Positions 4,777 to 29,077 of a DNA stretch of 32,043 nucleotides are shown here, piece by piece. The stretch lies in the IMG/VR virus record IMGVR_UViG_2713896773_000025; one strand, written 5' to 3'. Numbering within the stretch: the stretch's first letter is position 1; each line of letters begins with the position of its first letter. Position numbers and translations under genes: made by a program. The stretch comes from a virus (Duplodnaviria; Heunggongvirae; Uroviricota; Caudoviricetes). The notes below the pieces were generated by a model. It searched no databases, had not been told where the DNA came from, and worked only from the letters and a program-made list of their open reading frames with translations.

Positions 4777-4856
4777 AATAACTTTTAATTAAACCTGTTT
4801 TAAATATGGCGTAAACCTGCCGGGGGTGGCTTACGCCTGAATTAAGGAGTTCTGTA

Positions 4857-7641: not shown

Positions 7642-8118
7642 ATGTCCACGCCAGCAAAACGAGGCCTTATAGGTGCAATTAAAGCCGGTCAGGCATATCT
7701 GGGGTGGGATGAGGTAACCTACCGTAGTGTTCTGTCTCGCTTATGCAACGGTAAAACATCATCCACTAAATGCACCCTCGACGAGCTGCAGGCTGTCAGG
7801 GAATATATGCATGACAAGGGTTTTCCTCGCTACTCAGCAAAACACGGTCGACGCCCAAAGGTTGCCAATACGCGCGAGTCAATTCTTTCTAAAATTAACG
7901 CATTACTTGCAGATGCAAAACGTCCGTGGAATTATGCCGAGAAAATGTGCGATCATATGTTTCACGTCAAATACATCGAGTGGTTGACGACTGAACAGTT
8001 AACCAAACTCATGCAGGCTCTCAGCATTGATGCGAGTCGGCGAAAAAAGCGGGAGCGTAATAATGAATCTGGAACAGGTAACGGAGCTGCTGCCATCAGC
8101 AGTGATTCAAATAGCTGA
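7642..8118 (+). CDS. gemA: GemA-like regulatory protein (158 aa)
   Basis: ATG at 7642 with AGGAG RBS; KRGLIGAIKAGQAYLGWDE...YRSVL pattern recalled from the Mu GemA/DUF1018 family; sits immediately before the Mor-like gene. Confidence 0.7.
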   Translation: MSTPAKRGLIGAIKAGQAYLGWDEVTYRSVLSRLCNGKTSSTKCTLDELQAVREYMHDKGFPRYSAKHGRRPKVANTRESILSKINALLADAKRPWNYAEKMCDHMFHVKYIEWLTTEQLTKLMQALSIDASRRKKRERNNESGTGNGAAAISSDSNS

Positions 8119-8497
8119 CCTGATAGGCTTCCCGGCGACCGAGCAGCTTCTTTCTGCTTTTGGTGGCACCACGTTCCCGATAGGTAAAGGCCTCCGCGCT
8201 ATGGGGGCCAGCCGCGCAGCCCTCCTGCGCAATACTATCGGCGATGATAAAACCCAATTACTCATCAAGAATTTCGGCGGAGAAGTTCTCTATTTACCGC
8301 GCTGTGATCGTGCCCTTCGTGAATTACGCAACCGCCGCTTTCTCGCCGAGTTCGCCGAAGTGCGTGAACAAGGTTCATCCTCTCTTATGGCCATGACCTT
8401 TCTTTGCCCTAAGTATGGATTCAGCGATCGTTTTGGATGGCAGTTACTAAGCCAGCACAGACAAAACACATCAATCAATCAACAAGAACTTTTTTAA
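8063..8497 (+). CDS. mor: Mor/C-family transcriptional activator (144 aa)
   Basis: GGEVLYLPR...LRELRNRRFLAEF...YGFSDR resembles the Mor/C core GG.VYIPR...L..DL.I...F.G.N..EL...YG; overlaps the gemA 3' end. Confidence 0.75.
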   Translation: MNLEQVTELLPSAVIQIADLIGFPATEQLLSAFGGTTFPIGKGLRAMGASRAALLRNTIGDDKTQLLIKNFGGEVLYLPRCDRALRELRNRRFLAEFAEVREQGSSSLMAMTFLCPKYGFSDRFGWQLLSQHRQNTSINQQELF

Positions 8498-8510: not shown

Positions 8511-9011
8511 ATGGAGTTTTTAATTGCTTTAATTATATTCGGTGCTTCTGTTGCTGTTTACAAAGATGCTATCACCAATAACATTGCAAGACCTGCCCGT
8601 TGGGGGATTGGTTCAGCATTCATATTCTTCATTGTCATTCCATTGTATCTATTTAAAAGAAAAAAATTAATCGGAAGTGCATTATCAGACTCGGATGATG
8701 CCAGTAGTGTCCAGGGCGGAAAAAATGTTAGCCCCTTATCAGTTTATGTCCTGATGTTCATTTTAGCATTTATTGCCCCAGTGATTAATTTTTACAAAGG
8801 TGATTTACCTGGCTGTGATTCATCCGATGTCCATTCTGTTCTTACAGAGTTGCTGAATGGAGAAAAATTCTCTGAGCCCGCGCAAATGAGTTATGACCGG
8901 GTTAATGCAGTGAGACACTGTAACTTGACTGTTTCTGATAGAGTGTTTTCATATACAGTGAAATGGTACAGTGAAGAGAAAGATCAGTTTGTTGTACAGT
9001 TTGACAACTAA
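8511..9011 (+). CDS. AT-rich membrane protein, candidate moron (166 aa)
   Basis: Three hydrophobic helices plus a roughly 70-aa C-terminal soluble domain; gene is markedly more AT-rich than its neighbours. Confidence 0.6.
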   Translation: MEFLIALIIFGASVAVYKDAITNNIARPARWGIGSAFIFFIVIPLYLFKRKKLIGSALSDSDDASSVQGGKNVSPLSVYVLMFILAFIAPVINFYKGDLPGCDSSDVHSVLTELLNGEKFSEPAQMSYDRVNAVRHCNLTVSDRVFSYTVKWYSEEKDQFVVQFDN

Positions 9012-9013
9012 TT

Positions 9014-9091
9014 CCACTGAACCTCTTCACCTGATTATTCACCTAACCCGATGAAATACTGACGCCATCCCTTTTTAACCGGATGGCGTTA
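9014..9091 (+). promoter_or_regulatory. late-promoter-like element, copy 1: conserved motif CCACTGAACCTCTTCACC (9014..9031) plus hairpin 9060..9091 burying the endolysin start codon
   Basis: Motif is one of three near-identical copies; hairpin arms TGACGCCATCC / GGATGGCGTTA (one G-U pair) with a 10-nt loop; ATG at 9091. Confidence 0.55.
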
Positions 9092-9735
9092 TGCTTTTAA
9101 CACTCCCACAATTTCAGCGTGCAGCAGCTCTTTCGCCAGTGATGGCGCAACGATGGTTTGAACCATTCGGTAAAGCCACCGCTGAATTCGAAATTAATAC
9201 ACCCGCCAGACTTGCCGCCTTTATTGCTCAAACCGGCCATGAAAGCGCGGGTTTCAGTCGGCTCAGTGAAAATCTCTATTACTCTGATGCTGAGCGCGTG
9301 GCGCGTATTTTCCGCAGCGACTTCGATCTCAATAAGAATCGTATTATCGAGCCCTGCGAGATTGAATTTGCCCGACGCTATACCCGTAACCCTGAAAAAA
9401 TGGCGAATTATGTTTACGCAAATCAGGGGGGTAACGGTAATGAAGCATCAGGCGATGGCTGGCGCTTTCGCGGACGTGGCCTGATTCAGATTACCCTGCG
9501 CAATAATTACCGCCTTTGCGGTAAGGCGCTGGGCCTCGATCTCATCGCGAATCCCGATTTGTTACTGGAGTATCTCAACGCAGCCCGCAGCGCTGCCTGG
9601 TACTGGAAGGCAAATGGCTGCAACGAGCTGGCTGACAAAGGCAATTTTCTGGCCGTAACCCGGCGTATCAACCCTCCGGCTGAAGGTCAGGCTGACCGCG
9701 TGGCGCGGCTGAATGTCGCTAAGGCGGCGCTATGA
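9091..9735 (+). CDS. endolysin, glycoside hydrolase family 19 (chitinase-like) type (214 aa)
   Basis: AAFIAQTGHESAGF catalytic-region motif typical of GH19-type phage endolysins; first gene after the late-promoter-like element. Confidence 0.78.
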   Translation: MLLTLPQFQRAAALSPVMAQRWFEPFGKATAEFEINTPARLAAFIAQTGHESAGFSRLSENLYYSDAERVARIFRSDFDLNKNRIIEPCEIEFARRYTRNPEKMANYVYANQGGNGNEASGDGWRFRGRGLIQITLRNNYRLCGKALGLDLIANPDLLLEYLNAARSAAWYWKANGCNELADKGNFLAVTRRINPPAEGQADRVARLNVAKAAL

Positions 9736-9995
9736 AAATATCTCTGCGCGATCTGGTGACGAACCCGGCCACCGGTCGTCTCTCTACGTCAGACACCATC
9801 GTTTTTCTGGCCTTCCTGGTCAGTTCCTTCGTACTGGTCTGGCTCACCGTTACCCGCCCCGAAACTCCTGGTGAGCTGTATCTCACCTATCTGGGCGCGT
9901 GGGTGGCTCAGAGTCAGGCATCAAAACATATGTCCATCAAACGAGCCAGAGAGGTGCGCGATGTGGGAAGCAGCCCAGAAAATCCTGAGGGTTAG
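9732..9995 (+). CDS. single-TM lysis-associated protein, holin-like (87 aa)
   Basis: One hydrophobic helix IVFLAFLVSSFVLVWLTV; located between endolysin and spanin genes; role inferred from position only. Confidence 0.4.
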   Translation: MKISLRDLVTNPATGRLSTSDTIVFLAFLVSSFVLVWLTVTRPETPGELYLTYLGAWVAQSQASKHMSIKRAREVRDVGSSPENPEG

Positions 9996-10593
9996 CTGGA
10001 AACCGCTGCTCGTCGTCGTGGTTCTGGCAGGCTGCGGGATATGGTTCGGCACCTTCCTCACAGGCAACAAGCTGGACGCTCAGGCGCTGGCCTTCAGCCA
10101 GGAGAAGCAACGCCTGACTGATGGTTTCAGTGAAAAAGAACGGCAGTGGGATCAGGAGAGGCTCAGCGCTGCAAATCAGTATGCAGCTGACCTGAAGGCT
10201 GCACTTGATAAGCAGAACGCCTGGCAGCAGAAAGCGGATGCGCTGACCCGCGAGCTGGCTGAAAAGCAAAAGGCACATGACGAGACTGTTCGCGATCTTA
10301 AAAAGAGGCTTAAAGATGCACTTGATAAAGATGGTCCTGGTTATACCGGCATTGGCCCTGGCGGCCTGCAGCTCTTCCGTGAAGCCTTTGGCTACTCAGG
10401 ATCCGAAAGCCACCCCGCTGGTCAGCATCTGCCAGCCACCGCCAGCGGCGCTCCTGGTCATACCGGCCAGACCACAGGCACCGGTGGCGGACTCTCCCCC
10501 ACTGGAATAGTGTCGTTTTCAGCGGAATACGGCGCATGGTGCCAGCTCATTGAGGGCAGGCTGCAGGCAATAAATGAGTATTACAGGAAGTGA
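9961..10593 (+). CDS. i-spanin, Rz-like (210 aa)
   Basis: ATG at 9961 gives a short cytoplasmic N-terminus, a TM helix (PLLVVVVLAGCGIWFGTFL) and a long charged coiled-coil-like periplasmic region; contains an embedded lipoprotein ORF. Confidence 0.7.
   Translation: MWEAAQKILRVSWKPLLVVVVLAGCGIWFGTFLTGNKLDAQALAFSQEKQRLTDGFSEKERQWDQERLSAANQYAADLKAALDKQNAWQQKADALTRELAEKQKAHDETVRDLKKRLKDALDKDGPGYTGIGPGGLQLFREAFGYSGSESHPAGQHLPATASGAPGHTGQTTGTGGGLSPTGIVSFSAEYGAWCQLIEGRLQAINEYYRK
10316..10510 (+). CDS. o-spanin, Rz1-like lipoprotein embedded in +1 frame of the i-spanin (64 aa)
   Basis: MHLIKMVLVIPALALAAC with a lipobox-like LAAC, Pro-rich mature part and a C-terminal-proximal Cys; entirely inside 9961..10593 in another frame. 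Confidence 0.65.
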   Translation: MHLIKMVLVIPALALAACSSSVKPLATQDPKATPLVSICQPPPAALLVIPARPQAPVADSPPLE

Positions 10594-10844
10594 ACAACAT
10601 CATGACTCTTGATATGGCCTTTCAGATTGCGCTGGCGCTGGCTGCAACCTTCGGCACCATCTGGATACGCCGTCTGCAAAAAGACATTACCGACCTGGAA
10701 AAGGCGGTTGATCGCATCCGGGATGAATACCAGCGCCGTGAGGATGCGAAAAGTAACTACACCGCAATGATGGATGCGATGAGGGAGCTGCGAGCGGCTA
10801 TCGAGCGCATTGATAACAAACTGGACAGGAAACAGGACAAATGA
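10590..10844 (+). CDS. small membrane/coiled-coil protein, Mu-family (84 aa)
   Basis: N-terminal hydrophobic helix then charged helical region; ATGA-type overlap with the i-spanin stop. Confidence 0.5.
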   Translation: MNNIMTLDMAFQIALALAATFGTIWIRRLQKDITDLEKAVDRIRDEYQRREDAKSNYTAMMDAMRELRAAIERIDNKLDRKQDK

Positions 10845-11125
10845 AAGCCAGACATAAGCGCAGAACCCGCCGCGCGACAATCAGCCAGAGCGAGCAGGAA
10901 ACGCTGAGCCGGATTTCCGCTCAGCTCGAACGCCTGCAGGCCCCCGTCAGCCCGGACATTCTGGGCGGGATTAATGACAAGCTGAGCCGGATTGATGTTC
11001 GCCTCACGACCATCAGCGACGATGCGGCTCGCCGTGGTGCGTCTGCCGGTGCGATTACGGGTGGAATTGCAGGCGGTGTCATCACGGTGGCGATTCTGCT
11101 CATTCGCGCAAAACTGGAGCTGTGA
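10841..11125 (+). CDS. small protein with C-terminal TM helix (94 aa)
   Basis: Basic N-terminus, Gly/Ala-rich C-terminal hydrophobic segment AGAITGGIAGGVITVAILLI; start overlaps upstream stop. Confidence 0.5.
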   Translation: MKARHKRRTRRATISQSEQETLSRISAQLERLQAPVSPDILGGINDKLSRIDVRLTTISDDAARRGASAGAITGGIAGGVITVAILLIRAKLEL

Positions 11126-16317: not shown

Positions 16318-16856
16318 GTTACGCCATCAGGTATGACATTGGTGACTTTGAGCGTTCACTCGGTGAACTCATTAAAAAGCTGGAAAACCGCGCCCCCCTG
16401 ATGCGCGAGATGGCCGCTGCCATGGGCGATGCCGTCGAAGAAAACTTCGCGCAACAGGGGCGCCCCGCATGGATGGGCTGGAGCCCGGCATACGCCCGTC
16501 AGCGCCGGGGCGGTAAAATTCTCCAGAAGAGCGGTCGACTGGCGGCAAGTATCACCCAGTACAGCACGAATGATGAAGCGACGGTCGGGACCAATGTGAA
16601 ATACGCCCGCATCCACCAGGAAGGCGGGGAAATCAGCATTCCGGCCCGCAGTCAGAAAGCCTGGTACCGCCAGAAAAAGGATGGTTCAGTGGGTAACCGG
16701 TTCGTTAAAAAATCCCGCTCCAACTTTGAGCAGTGGAACACTATCGGGGCGTATAAAATTAGGATGCCCGCGCGTCCTTTCCTGCATCTCACCGAAGATG
16801 ACGTGGAGAAGATGGAGAATACGGCTGAGCAGTATCTGAAACGTATTTTAGACTGA
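16314..16856 (+). CDS. Mu G-like virion morphogenesis protein (180 aa)
   Basis: ATGA overlap with F-like gene; size and position match Mu G. Confidence 0.72.
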   Translation: MSYAIRYDIGDFERSLGELIKKLENRAPLMREMAAAMGDAVEENFAQQGRPAWMGWSPAYARQRRGGKILQKSGRLAASITQYSTNDEATVGTNVKYARIHQEGGEISIPARSQKAWYRQKKDGSVGNRFVKKSRSNFEQWNTIGAYKIRMPARPFLHLTEDDVEKMENTAEQYLKRILD

Positions 16857-16972
16857 GGGCAAATTCGTCCTGTAACGCGCTGTGACGCGTTCAGCCTGAT
16901 TGTGCTAGAGTGATTCGCCAAAGAGGTGTTCAGACGTTTTTAAAAGCGGTTTAAAAAGGCCTGGGCTCATAA

Positions 16973-17191
16973 ATGCATTACGGGAGCGGGCAACTGTACA
17001 CATTCAAAGCTTTCCTTGATTATTTCACCCCGCAGCAGTGGGTTTTCATTGGCATCTTAGGGGGGCTGGTTATAAAAGTTGCTGAGTGGTTCACTGACCG
17101 ATACTTTGCCCGCAGGCGTCAGTCTGCTAAACCCGATAAGCCGACAACCAAAGCGATCCTCAGCGATAATCCACTGAACCTCTTCATCTGA
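16973..17191 (+). CDS. doubtful 72-aa ORF in the G-I intergenic region
   Basis: Weak RBS; one hydrophobic helix; its 3' end overlaps the conserved late-promoter motif, so it may be spurious. Confidence 0.25.
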   Translation: MHYGSGQLYTFKAFLDYFTPQQWVFIGILGGLVIKVAEWFTDRYFARRRQSAKPDKPTTKAILSDNPLNLFI

Positions 17192-17227
17192 ACCTCCCCG
17201 CAGTGGTGCCGTATCGTCGGCACCATG
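17171..17227 (+). promoter_or_regulatory. late-promoter-like element, copy 2: motif CCACTGAACCTCTTCATC (17171..17188) plus hairpin 17204..17225 ending in the I-gene start codon
   Basis: Stem GGTGCCG / CGGCACC (17205..17211 / 17218..17224) extendable by a T-A pair that uses the A of the ATG at 17225; loop TATCGT. Confidence 0.55.
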
Positions 17228-29015: not shown

Positions 29016-29077
29016 CCACTGAACCCCTTCACCGATAATTTAAATTTCCATGCCGGTAGTATTACGGCATGGAAATG
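29016..29077 (+). promoter_or_regulatory. late-promoter-like element, copy 3: motif CCACTGAACCCCTTCACC (29016..29033) plus 12-bp hairpin 29044..29076 covering both candidate start codons
   Basis: Stem ATTTCCATGCCG / CGGCATGGAAAT with loop GTAGTATTA; ATGs at 29069 and 29075 are inside the 3' arm. Confidence 0.55.

What the first reader, a model, noticed from the sequence alone, without database searches (positions are those of the whole stretch)
16857..17224. 368-bp G-I intergenic region: candidate central strong gyrase site and/or anti-defence insertion hotspot
In Mu the strong gyrase site needed for efficient replicative transposition lies near the genome centre, recalled as being in the G-I intergenic region; in Pseudomonas Mu-like phages the equivalent G-I junction is where anti-CRISPR genes are inserted. 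Here the region holds a short hairpin right after the G stop (AACGCG ctgtga CGCGTT, 16874..16891), an AT-rich stretch, a low-confidence 72-aa ORF with one hydrophobic helix, and late-promoter copy 2. What the region encodes cannot be decided from sequence alone.
Basis: partly seen in the sequence, partly recalled or inferred. Interest (0 to 1): 0.5.

Follow-up and report, generated by a model that had tools for sequence, protein, structure and literature searches.

The report
Mu-like G–I spacer: three-part mosaic
The gap between head genes G and I of this Mu-like prophage holds a conserved T/A-tract DNA element resembling the arm of phage Mu's strong gyrase site, an optional small membrane-protein gene descended from a pinholin, and the late promoter for gene I; none of it resembles an anti-defence gene.

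Summary
Comparison of 87 related loci splits it into three modules.

1. A non-coding dyad, TTTTTAAA-N5-TTTAAAAA (16937-16957), lies in the G–I spacer of 86 of 86 relatives and almost nowhere else. Mu/SfMu (SGS right arm) and Haemophilus SuMu carry similar phased TnAn arrays at the same near-central position. It is the best SGS candidate. Gyrase action is inferred only, because my scoring surrogates failed Mu's positive control.

2. ORF72 (16973-17191) is a real accessory gene. It scores above Pfam's cut-off for P21 holin S but lacks TMD1 and the glycine zipper. It lies 7 kb from a soluble GH19 endolysin. Its small family sits between G and I in at least five prophage lineages and is under purifying selection. 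Most relatives lack it.

3. The late box (17171-17188, three exact copies) plus a covarying hairpin around a -10-like hexamer abuts the I start codon.

The post-G hairpin is no better than chance. I found no anti-defence similarity, but the junction does carry different cargo in different lineages. Overall this is a new variant of known kinds, of moderate interest.

The parts
16870..16894 (+). Post-G hairpin (CTG.AACGCG-ctgtga-CGCGTT.CAG). It is a weak positional counterpart of the terminator-like stem-loop found after G in other lineages, and it has no T-run.
   Evidence: dG -10.5 kcal/mol, z -1.56, not significant; uncompensated stem change in the 96-98%-identical relatives. L050-type lineages have an 11-bp stem (dG -14 to -17) running into a T-stretch, with compensatory changes between lineages.
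16882..16917 (+). Lineage-specific conserved block GTGnTAGAGTGATTCG (16902-16917), always 25 bp from the first T|A junction of the dyad. Together with GTGACG (16882-16887) it reads as a weak sigma-70 promoter with an extended -10 (TGcTAGAGT, 18-nt spacer). Its function is unknown.
   Evidence: the block and the 25-bp spacing are conserved in lineages with G at least 79% identical and in L107, L110 and L111, while the 25 nt between block and dyad vary; unique in the window; not called by the consensus promoter scan (8 of 12 matches, threshold 9). The promoter reading is my inference.
16937..16957 (.). Dyad TTTTTAAA-AGCGG-TTTAAAAA: two TTTAAA-type palindromes with T|A junctions 11 bp apart (16941/42 and 16952/53). 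It is the best candidate for a Mu-SGS-type phased bending (gyrase-wrapping) element.
   Evidence: TTTAAA-N5-TTTAAA (at most 1 mismatch) in the G-I spacer of 86 of 86 loci, with 4 hits in 486 kb of flanks; the 23-mer is unique in the window. Mu and SfMu have T6A4, T5A3 and T3A2 in the SGS right arm; SuMu has four TnAn at 10, 11 and 10 bp; JBD24 has none.
16973..17191 (+). ORF72, a 72-aa homologue of the S21 (P21 holin S) family that lacks TMD1. The model shows helix 5-17, a break at T19-P20, a long helix 20-51 (hydrophobic core W23-I34, then K35, E38, D42), a basic juxtamembrane stretch and a disordered tail. Possible internal start: CTG 16994, preceded by GGGAG at 16982-16986.
   Evidence: PF04971, 37.5 bits against a cut-off of 26; hhalign 98.2%, E 5e-14, to S21 residues 21-65 only. 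TMD1 missing, charges in TMD2; family located between G and I in several lineages; dN/dS about 0.15-0.23 between lineages. AlphaFold2, pLDDT 85-90 over residues 11-40; start and stop anomalies.
17060..17065 (+). G6 homopolymer run inside ORF72. One 99%-identical relative (L025) has G5 here, which frameshifts the ORF.
   Evidence: L025 spacer is 367 nt, and tblastn matches only the C-terminal part of the ORF.
17171..17188 (+). Late box copy 2, CCACTGAACCTCTTCATC, with internal dyad TGAA-N4-TTCA. Presumed binding site of the phage's Mor/C-family late activator; equivalent to Mu's PI.
   Evidence: three exact copies upstream of the lysis block, gene I and the gp46 block; 0 expected by chance; conserved at a fixed distance from the I ATG in 63 distinct sequences. 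Mor-family protein encoded at 8027-8497.
17203..17226 (+). Hairpin (core GGTGCCG / CGGCACC) enclosing the -10-like hexamer TATCGT (17212-17217) and ending at the I start codon (17225).
   Evidence: dG -16.4 kcal/mol, z -4.0; the equivalent hairpins after copies 1 and 3 give z -6.3 and -6.0; covariation score 0.447 against 0.198 in shuffles (0 of 500 reach it) and 0.10-0.21 in slid registers; 6 pairs change on both sides; a TAnnnT hexamer fixed at -14 to -9 from the ATG.

Best explanation
The G-I spacer is a mosaic of three independent modules.

(1) Non-coding element. The left 100 nt carry the dyad TTTTTAAA-N5-TTTAAAAA, preceded in this lineage by a block at a fixed 25-bp distance. The dyad is conserved in every relative, at the position of Mu's strong gyrase site. 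I infer that it is the phased, anisotropically flexible DNA that wraps the GyrA C-terminal domain, like Mu's SGS right arm, and so makes this near-central locus a preferred gyrase site that helps prophage-end synapsis during replicative transposition.

(2) Accessory gene. Between that element and the late promoter lies a gene for a small N-out/C-in membrane protein. It descends from the TMD2 half of an S21-type pinholin, with an amphipathic N-terminal helix in place of TMD1. It is dispensable for the core lysis module. It is most likely transcribed late, by read-through from G, because no convincing terminator intervenes. It most likely acts at the inner membrane, either by permeabilising it or by modulating lysis timing.

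(3) Late promoter. The right 55 nt hold a dyad-symmetric activator box about 23 nt upstream of a -10-like hexamer. That hexamer sits in the loop of a covarying hairpin 7 nt before the I ATG, so I mRNA would be nearly leaderless.

Shown: the anatomy, conservation, homology, purifying selection and repeat statistics. Inferred: gyrase binding, the expression route, the membrane activity and the transcription start.
For: Context: the window is a Mu-like prophage, and Mu's cut site is annotated between G and I.

Module 1: the dyad is in 86 of 86 spacers and in only 4 other places in 486 kb. It resembles Mu's TTTTTTAAAACGCG. SuMu has four phased TnAn elements in the same spacer. The dyad persists whether cargo is inserted to its right (ORF72 lineages) or to its left (L063), so it is not tied to the distance from G or from I. 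The location is near-central. The right arm is the essential arm of the Mu SGS (PMC13284261; PMC10052514).

Module 2: PF04971 match above the curated cut-off; hhalign 98.2%; 22 clusters in the family; the G-I location recurs at 46-53% identity; pS is saturated while pN is 0.24-0.36; orthologues have good Shine-Dalgarno sequences; the ORF-less Klebsiella phage has the same lysis cassette; S21 TMD2 alone forms transient pores (bioRxiv 10.1101/2021.04.20.440580).

Module 3.
Against: There is no direct evidence for gyrase. The consensus-match, S/W-match and 10-11-bp periodicity scores give only z of about 1.9-3.1 in the spacer, and the same scores fail to single out Mu's own SGS. The window has only two TnAn elements against three in Mu and four in SuMu. 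The dyad lies about 80 nt from the G stop, whereas Mu's first element is about 38 nt from it, and no cleavage site can be assigned.

For ORF72 in the window clade: ATG is replaced by CTG at the family's start position, and the upstream ATG has no clear Shine-Dalgarno. The C-terminal tail is frameshifted through the late box. One relative has a frameshift in the G6 run. Within-clade dN/dS is about 0.6. The glycine zipper is not conserved and charged residues sit in the hydrophobic helix. The endolysin is soluble, so a pinhole would not release it.

A transcription start at the ATG would leave the covarying hairpin untranscribed from PI, which is unexplained.
Confidence: 0.55

Rival explanations
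1. The conserved T/A dyad is a binding site for a sequence-specific or architecture-specific protein rather than a gyrase site. Candidates are a nucleoid protein such as Fis, IHF, HU or H-NS, or a phage regulator that bends or loops DNA upstream of the late promoter.
For: It is a perfect 8-bp inverted repeat with a fixed 5-nt spacer, the classic shape of a dimer site. In this lineage it sits at a fixed 25 bp from another conserved block. In basal spacers it lies about 140 nt upstream of the I ATG. Formation of the Mu prophage domain depends on IHF, Fis and HU as well as on the SGS (PMC3820752).
Against: By eye I found no IHF consensus and no Fis pattern (G at -7, C at +7) conserved across lineages. 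The dyad is kept when its distance to the promoter doubles (ORF72 lineages) and when its distance to G grows tenfold (L063). There are no further copies at the other late promoters. In Mu the equivalent elements lie inside the experimentally defined SGS right arm.
Confidence: 0.2
2. ORF72 is a moron expressed from the lysogen through its own weak sigma-70 promoter (16882-16911). It would benefit the host or prophage, for example by superinfection exclusion or by co-assembling with and poisoning or prematurely triggering S21-type pinholins of competing lambdoid phages.
For: It is accessory and patchily distributed at a junction that carries other cargo elsewhere. A candidate extended -10 promoter lies upstream. 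It retains the TMD2 and juxtamembrane region through which S21 oligomerises, but with the zipper altered. A related member, P0012, sits antisense inside a lambdoid lysis cassette that has a true S21 holin.
Against: The promoter scores only 8 of 12 and was not called by the scan. The same block is present in ORF-less lineages. There is no PADLOC hit. There is no terminator after the ORF, which ends on or inside the late box.
Confidence: 0.2
3. In the window's own clade ORF72 is a decaying relic with no present function; only its orthologues in other lineages are functional.
For: The family's start codon is CTG here and the upstream ATG has no clear Shine-Dalgarno. A 4-nt deletion changes the tail and runs the ORF through the promoter box. 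L025 carries a frameshift in the G6 run. Within-clade dN/dS is about 0.6. PGAP did not call the ORF in E. coli FDAARGOS_1303.
Against: The reading frame stays open across both the 72-aa and the 69-aa variants and through a 9-nt in-frame indel. The GGGAG before the CTG is retained. The exact 72-aa protein cluster is listed in 193 blocks of the assembly index. C-terminal tails vary across the whole family anyway.
Confidence: 0.2
4. The spacer encodes an anti-CRISPR or other anti-defence protein, as at the equivalent junction of Pseudomonas Mu-like phages.
For: The junction is the same, and small genes are inserted there in JBD24. An anti-CRISPR locus lies in a region of genomic plasticity of D3112-type phages (PMC10155984).
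Against: ORF72 is clearly homologous to holins. It is a membrane protein, it has no aca-like partner gene, and it matches nothing else in PHROGs, PADLOC or NCBIfam.
Confidence: 0.03

Closest known systems
Strong gyrase site (SGS) of phage Mu (Pato, Howe and Higgins 1990; Oram et al. 2006)
   Same: Same slot: the G-I intergenic region, upstream of the late promoter PI and near the genome centre. Both have helically phased TnAn elements, and the window's first element, GTTTTTAAAAGCGG, is nearly identical to Mu's TTTTTTAAAACGCG.
   Different: The window has two elements 11 bp apart; Mu has three spread over 33 bp. The distance from the G stop is about 80 nt against about 38 nt in Mu. There is no recognisable similarity around Mu's cleavage site. 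No biochemical or genetic evidence exists here. According to the review PMC10052514, only the SGS of the closely related E. coli O157 Sakai prophage substituted for Mu's.
Phage 21 pinholin S21 68 / antiholin S21 71 (Pfam PF04971)
   Same: Clear homology over the end of TMD1, the SPxQW loop, TMD2 and the LTNLYF-basic juxtamembrane segment. The predicted N-out/C-in helix matches the activated topology of S21.
   Different: ORF72 lacks residues 1-20 (most of the SAR-type TMD1) and the Met-Lys-x-Met dual start. The glycine-zipper positions read G, G, K and are not conserved in the family. K35, E38 and D42 lie in the helix. The gene is not next to an endolysin, and the phage's endolysin is a soluble GH19 rather than a SAR enzyme.
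C-dependent late promoters of Mu (Plys, PI, PP, Pmom)
   Same: A repeated box sits upstream of the lysis/head, I and baseplate blocks. The phage encodes a Mor/C-family protein. The box is dyad-symmetric and lies upstream of a -10-like hexamer with no -35 (Mu annotation).
   Different: The box sequence differs. There are three copies in the window, and no mom-type copy was seen. The -10-like hexamer lies only 7 nt from the start codons of I and gp46, inside a covarying hairpin, whereas Mu's I has an annotated ribosome-binding site and a short leader.
Anti-CRISPR locus (region of genomic plasticity) between G and the protease/scaffold gene of Pseudomonas D3112/JBD-type Mu-like phages
   Same: The same junction tolerates small accessory genes.
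   Different: The cargo is unrelated: a holin-family membrane protein rather than a soluble Acr with an Aca regulator. The Pseudomonas junction has no T/A dyad.
Mu gp25 releasin (DUF2730), the holin-less lysis pathway of Mu
   Same: It is a small N-out/C-in single-pass membrane protein of transposable phages involved in lysis (PMC9239132).
   Different: There is no sequence relationship. The releasin maps within the lysis cassette and acts on SAR endolysins. ORF72 maps 7 kb away, in a phage with a soluble endolysin.

Membership tests
Mu-type strong gyrase site | Lies in the G-I intergenic region, near the centre of the transposable prophage | tested here: met
   The spacer lies at about 52% of the 34.2-kb prophage in L001 (bounded by the split ydbL gene) and at about 51% of the 35.2-kb Klebsiella phage genome. 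Mu's cut site is at 48.7%.
Mu-type strong gyrase site | One arm carries an extended set of phased anisotropic bending signals (the right arm is essential) | tested here: inconclusive
   Two TnAn elements 11 bp apart are conserved in 86 of 86 relatives. The 10-11-bp W-periodicity is only z 2.2-3.1 in the spacer, and the same measure ranks Mu's SGS only 162-387 of 36.6k positions.
Mu-type strong gyrase site | High score with the Topo-seq gyrase motif (Mu SGS 14.3, the top site in the Mu genome) | tested here: inconclusive
   The PWM table DS10 is cut off in the held supplement. Surrogates built from the published consensus rank Mu's SGS only 211-231 of 36,585 positions, so they are not valid tests.
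Mu-type strong gyrase site | Strong, site-specific quinolone-induced gyrase cleavage and processive supercoiling | not testable with these tools
   Needs biochemistry or Topo-seq.
Mu-type strong gyrase site | Deletion delays replicative transposition; function depends on the central position | not testable with these tools
   Needs genetics.
S21-type pinholin (PF04971) | Sequence membership in PF04971 | tested here: met
   37.5 bits against a gathering score of 26. hhalign against true S21-type holins: 98.2%, E 4.7e-14.
S21-type pinholin (PF04971) | Two TMDs, the first a weakly hydrophobic SAR-type TMD1 that exits the membrane | tested here: not met
   The alignment starts at S21 residue 21. 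The N-terminal segment carries K12 and D16 (plus E6 and D9 in the 69-aa variants). There is only one hydrophobic stretch.
S21-type pinholin (PF04971) | Glycine zipper (G-x3-S-x3-G) in TMD2 | tested here: not met
   The aligned positions are G27, G31 and K35 in the window, and G/R/W, G/A/R, Y/M/A and S/A/W in other lineages. The zipper's role is cited from PMC9025707.
S21-type pinholin (PF04971) | Gene adjacent to a SAR endolysin within the lysis cassette | tested here: not met
   The endolysin (9091-9735) is a GH19 enzyme with no N-terminal hydrophobic segment and lies 7.2 kb away. Lambdoid homologues do sit next to the endolysin.
S21-type pinholin (PF04971) | Dual-start motif giving holin and antiholin | tested here: not met
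   There is no Met-Lys-x-Met. Orthologues have a single start. The window clade has an ATG (no Shine-Dalgarno) and, 7 codons later, a CTG preceded by a Shine-Dalgarno.
S21-type pinholin (PF04971) | Lethal hole formation that can be triggered by depolarisation | not testable with these tools
   Needs an expression and DNP-triggering assay, as in PMC9239132.
Anti-CRISPR / anti-defence locus of Mu-like phages | Located at the G-I junction | tested here: met
Anti-CRISPR / anti-defence locus of Mu-like phages | Similarity to a known Acr or anti-defence family, or a linked aca-type HTH gene | tested here: not met
   PHROGs returns only holin families and one family of unknown function. PADLOC and NCBIfam return nothing. 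No second gene lies in the spacer. No dedicated Acr HMM library was available.
Activator-dependent late promoter of Mu-like phages | A conserved box repeated upstream of the late operons, with a Mor/C-family activator encoded by the phage | tested here: met
   Three exact copies, 0 expected by chance. The positions match the lysis, I and baseplate blocks. PF08765 protein at 8027-8497.
Activator-dependent late promoter of Mu-like phages | Activator-dependent transcription start downstream of the box | not testable with these tools
   Only the geometry is shown: the box ends 23 nt before a TAnnnT hexamer fixed at -14 to -9 from the ATG.

The most novel reading that the evidence does not exclude
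Two linked novelties remain possible. (a) The dyad TTTTTAAA-N5-TTTAAAAA, and more generally a phased TnAn array in the G-I spacer, could be a portable, sequence-definable signature of the functional arm of strong gyrase sites across enterobacterial and Pasteurellaceae transposable phages. (b) The TMD1-less S21-like proteins could be a dedicated class of G-I-junction accessory proteins. They might act as a minimal, untimed pore or lysis trigger for Mu-like phages that have no recognised holin, or as decoys that co-assemble with the pinholins of competing lambdoid phages.
Probability: 0.15. Interest if true: 0.65.

Novelty: new variant of a known kind. Interest (0 to 1): 0.42.

Why it matters
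The Mu SGS is the strongest natural gyrase site known, yet its sequence determinants are still described only as 'phased bending signals'. A short element that is invariant across some 70 diverged spacers, and recognisable in Mu, SfMu and SuMu, gives a concrete mutable target. It could be used to ask what makes a gyrase site 'strong' and whether all transposable phages of Enterobacterales use one.

Separately, Mu was recently shown to lyse without a holin, and how Mu-like phages with soluble endolysins breach the membrane is an open question. A pinholin-derived, TMD2-only protein family that lives at the G-I junction is a natural experiment on the minimal pore-forming unit of S21. It is also a candidate accessory lysis factor or inter-phage competition factor.

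If neither idea holds, the region is still a well-resolved example of a moron slot between a structural DNA element and a late promoter.

Tried and rejected
1. Gyrase-motif scan. The real PWM (Sutormin et al. 2019, table DS10) is cut off in the held supplement. Surrogates built from the published 133-bp consensus (base match and S/W match) rank Mu's true SGS only 211-231 of 36,585 positions, so they were rejected as tests.

2. Periodicity. Mu's SGS reaches only z 3.2-3.9 in 10-11-bp A/T periodicity (rank 162-387), so the measure does not discriminate. The window's spacer reaches z 2.2-3.1.

3. The primary Oram and Pato papers (PMC438558, PMC1347280) are not held.

5. The dyad as an RNA hairpin: z -0.87.

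6. Rfam: only one chance-level hit below the gathering score.

7. The consensus sigma-70 and terminator scan of the spacer found nothing relevant. My own terminator scan was too permissive; only the L050-type hairpins are convincing.

8. A remnant of ORF72 in the nearest ORF-less spacers: L034 gives p of about 0.01, but its sisters give 0.24-0.33 and I ran 13 tests. This is not robust, so whether the ORF was gained or lost stays open.

9. PADLOC and NCBIfam give no hits for ORF72 or for the L063 cargo.

10. The minus-strand 77-aa gene that PGAP calls in E. coli FDAARGOS_1303 is broken in the window and was rejected as the coding strand.

11. A second dyad-like hit at 4788 is an unrelated AT-rich intergenic stretch with one mismatch.
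Full report
**What is there**

The window is a Mu-like transposable prophage. Identified genes include:
- transposase A and B;
- GemA and a Mor-family activator;
- a GH19 endolysin;
- terminase and portal;
- F, G and the I protease;
- the T capsid protein and Mu-type tail and baseplate genes.

G (PF05069) ends at 16856 and I (PF10123) starts at 17225, so the 368-nt spacer is real. The hairpin is at 16874-16891, the AT-rich dip is mild (GC 0.45-0.46), and the 72-aa ORF is at 16973-17191. The promoter-like box has exactly three copies in the window and none in 100 shuffles.

**Relatives**

The region is rare in sequenced E. coli: 1 of 5,426 complete genomes, a prophage that splits ydbL. The closest isolated phage is Klebsiella phage ST405-OXA48phi1.1.

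Using G as a probe I collected 87 loci that contain both G and I. They give 71 distinct spacers, with G identity from 100% down to 54%, plus Mu itself. Most spacers are 206-248 nt long, and Mu's is 196 nt. The longer ones are:

| Spacer length | Loci | Content |
|---|---|---|
| 367-381 nt | the window's clade | ORF72 |
| about 400-420 nt | L037, L038, L105, L107, L110, L111 | diverged ORF72 homologues |
| 1036 nt | L063 | unrelated cargo |

The apparent 391-nt spacer of L015 and L042 reflects a mis-assigned I start in my script, judged by reading the sequence.

**Module 1: the SGS question**

Mu's GenBank record places the gyrase cut site 20 nt after the G stop, followed by a terminator and the late promoter PI.

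Mu's right arm is the arm whose removal abolishes SGS activity (PMC13284261; PMC10052514). It reads TTTTTTAAAACGCGCC-ACGGGATTTTTAAACCGG-TATTTAAC, with T|A junctions at 0, +21 and +33 bp.

In the window the best-conserved sequence of the whole spacer is TTTTTAAA-AGCGG-TTTAAAAA (16937-16957). It is a perfect inverted repeat whose two T|A junctions are 11 bp apart. The evidence around it is as follows.
- **Conservation.** The pattern TTTAAA-N5-TTTAAA (at most one mismatch) is in the G-I spacer of all 86 relatives, with only 4 hits in 486 kb of flanking DNA.
- **Other phages.** Haemophilus phage SuMu has four such elements at 10, 11 and 10-bp intervals in its G-I spacer. SfMu is identical to Mu. 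GC-rich Pseudomonas JBD24 has none.
- **Independence from its neighbours.** The dyad stays put whether cargo is inserted to its right (ORF72) or to its left (L063). Its role therefore does not depend on its distance from G or from the promoter.
- **Central position.** The locus lies at about 51-52% of two complete relatives.
- **A companion block.** In the window's wider lineage a second block, GTGnTAGAGTGATTCG, sits exactly 25 bp upstream of the dyad, with variable sequence in between.

I infer that this module is the counterpart of the Mu SGS arm. That remains an inference. The Topo-seq PWM was not available. Two surrogate scores and a periodicity measure all failed to single out Mu's own SGS, so they cannot count for or against. 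It looks like a degenerate version of the terminator-like stem-loop that follows G in other lineages.

**Module 2: ORF72**

*Homology.* The product exceeds Pfam's gathering score for the P21 holin S family (37.5 against 26 bits). A profile-profile comparison with true S21-type holins gives 98.2% probability. The homology covers only S21 residues 21-65: the last turn of TMD1, the SPxQW loop, TMD2 and the basic juxtamembrane segment.

*Differences from a pinholin.* The N-terminal 20 residues of S21, which form most of the SAR-type TMD1, are absent. A conserved amphipathic helix (METFKAFLDYFT) takes their place. The hydrophobic helix carries K35, E38 and D42, and the glycine-zipper positions read G, G, K. 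AlphaFold2 gives helix 5-17, a break at T19-P20, helix 20-51 and a disordered tail.

*Family.* The family is small: 6 hits among 1.84 billion representative proteins and 22 clusters with a profile search. Its location is consistent. Members at 46-53% identity from four other Mu-like prophage lineages are all encoded between G and I. One outlier, P0012, lies antisense inside a lambdoid lysis cassette that also has a true S21 holin.

*Selection.* Between lineages, synonymous sites are saturated while pN is 0.24-0.36. This gives dN/dS of about 0.15-0.23 where it can be estimated, so this is a real protein under constraint.

*Not part of core lysis.* It is not part of the core lysis module, for three reasons:
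- the endolysin is a soluble GH19 with no SAR segment;
- the cassette has its own membrane proteins and an embedded spanin pair;
- the ORF-less Klebsiella phage has the same cassette.

*Oddities of the window clade.*
- The family's ATG or GTG start is CTG here. The GGGAG Shine-Dalgarno is retained 7 nt upstream, and the ORF is opened by an upstream ATG with no obvious Shine-Dalgarno.
- A 4-nt deletion shifts the tail, so the ORF no longer stops at the TAA abutting the late box and reads through the box instead.
- One relative has a frameshift in the G6 run.
- Within-clade dN/dS is about 0.6.

*Likely function.* Published work shows that S21 TMD2 alone is necessary and sufficient for transient pores, and that N-terminally truncated forms act without the normal timing (bioRxiv 10.1101/2021.04.20.440580). 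The most economical reading is therefore a small membrane-active accessory protein. The altered zipper and the buried charges make a classical heptameric pinhole doubtful.

**Module 3: the late promoter**

The box CCACTGAACCYCTTCAYC contains the dyad TGAA-N4-TTCA. It lies upstream of the lysis block (9014), gene I (17171) and the gp46 baseplate block (29016). This parallels Mu's Plys, PI and PP.

In 63 distinct relatives the box, a TAnnnT hexamer at -14 to -9, and the I ATG align without a single gap. The hexamer sits in the loop of a hairpin that is thermodynamically unusual (z -4.0; -6.3 and -6.0 for the hairpins after copies 1 and 3). The hairpin also covaries across lineages (score 0.447 against 0.198 in shuffles, 0 of 500 reaching it; slid registers 0.10-0.21). 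If the hexamer is the -10 element, I mRNA is essentially leaderless. Why a hairpin should then be conserved around the -10 is unexplained.

**Hotspot and anti-defence**

The junction is variable. It is empty in most relatives, holds the ORF72 family in several lineages, and holds a 247-aa multi-pass membrane ORF on the reverse strand in L063. JBD24 has four small genes there, consistent with the documented anti-CRISPR region of D3112-type phages (PMC10155984). Nothing in the window resembles an anti-defence gene.

**Verdict**

The region is a mosaic of a probable SGS-arm element, an optional pinholin-derived gene and the late promoter PI. Each part belongs to a known kind. The universal dyad and the TMD1-less holin subfamily resident at the G-I junction are new variants worth a modest experimental follow-up.

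Noticed in passing
window 9014-9093, 17171-17227, 29016-29075: Each of the three late boxes is followed by a strong hairpin (z -6.3, -4.0, -6.0) that ends at or overlaps the start codon. For I and gp46 a TAnnnT hexamer lies 6-7 nt before the ATG, which implies nearly leaderless late mRNAs. For the lysis gene the spacing is 23 nt longer.
   Followed up: partly
L063 3022-3765 (minus strand): A related prophage carries a 247-aa, AT-rich, multi-pass membrane ORF on the opposite strand between G and the T/A dyad. It has no Pfam or PADLOC match and is a different cargo at the same junction.
   Followed up: partly
L109 3001-3213 (Salmonella contig): P0012, a distant TMD1-less member of the ORF72 family, lies antisense between the lysozyme and Rz genes of a lambdoid lysis cassette that also encodes a true two-TMD S21-type holin.
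   Followed up: no
L001 18111-18344 (E. coli FDAARGOS_1303, WP_233098473.1): PGAP annotates a 77-aa hypothetical gene on the minus strand of this spacer. That frame is broken in the window, while the plus-strand holin-like ORF is conserved, so the annotation is probably on the wrong strand.
   Followed up: yes
L025 (IMG/VR 2563366840_000011), equivalent of window 17060-17065: A 99%-identical relative has G5 instead of G6 inside ORF72, which frameshifts it. This could be a sequencing error, decay or slippage.
   Followed up: no
window 8511-9011: A 166-aa ORF with three hydrophobic segments and no Pfam, PADLOC or NCBIfam match sits between the Mor-family gene and the lysis late box. Mu has the membrane proteins gp19 and gp20 and the activator C at that position. 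Only one Mor/C-family gene was found in the window.
   Followed up: no
window 9091-11125: The lysis block comprises a GH19 endolysin without a SAR or TMD segment, a DUF2644 membrane protein, an embedded spanin pair (i-spanin within 9871-10593; o-spanin 10277-10510 with lipobox LAAC), and two further single-TMD proteins. No recognised holin or DUF2730 releasin was detected by Pfam.
   Followed up: partly
L114 1205-1443 (Haemophilus phage SuMu G-I spacer): Four consecutive TnAn elements (T6A4, T3A4, T4A4, T4A4) with junctions 10, 11 and 10 bp apart, preceded by a terminator-like hairpin after G. This is the clearest phased array seen in any of the spacers.
   Followed up: partly
P0014 (E. coli, 100 aa): Another family member reads through the late box into a long tail, like the window's 72-aa form. 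Loss of the TAA that abuts the box has therefore happened more than once.
   Followed up: no
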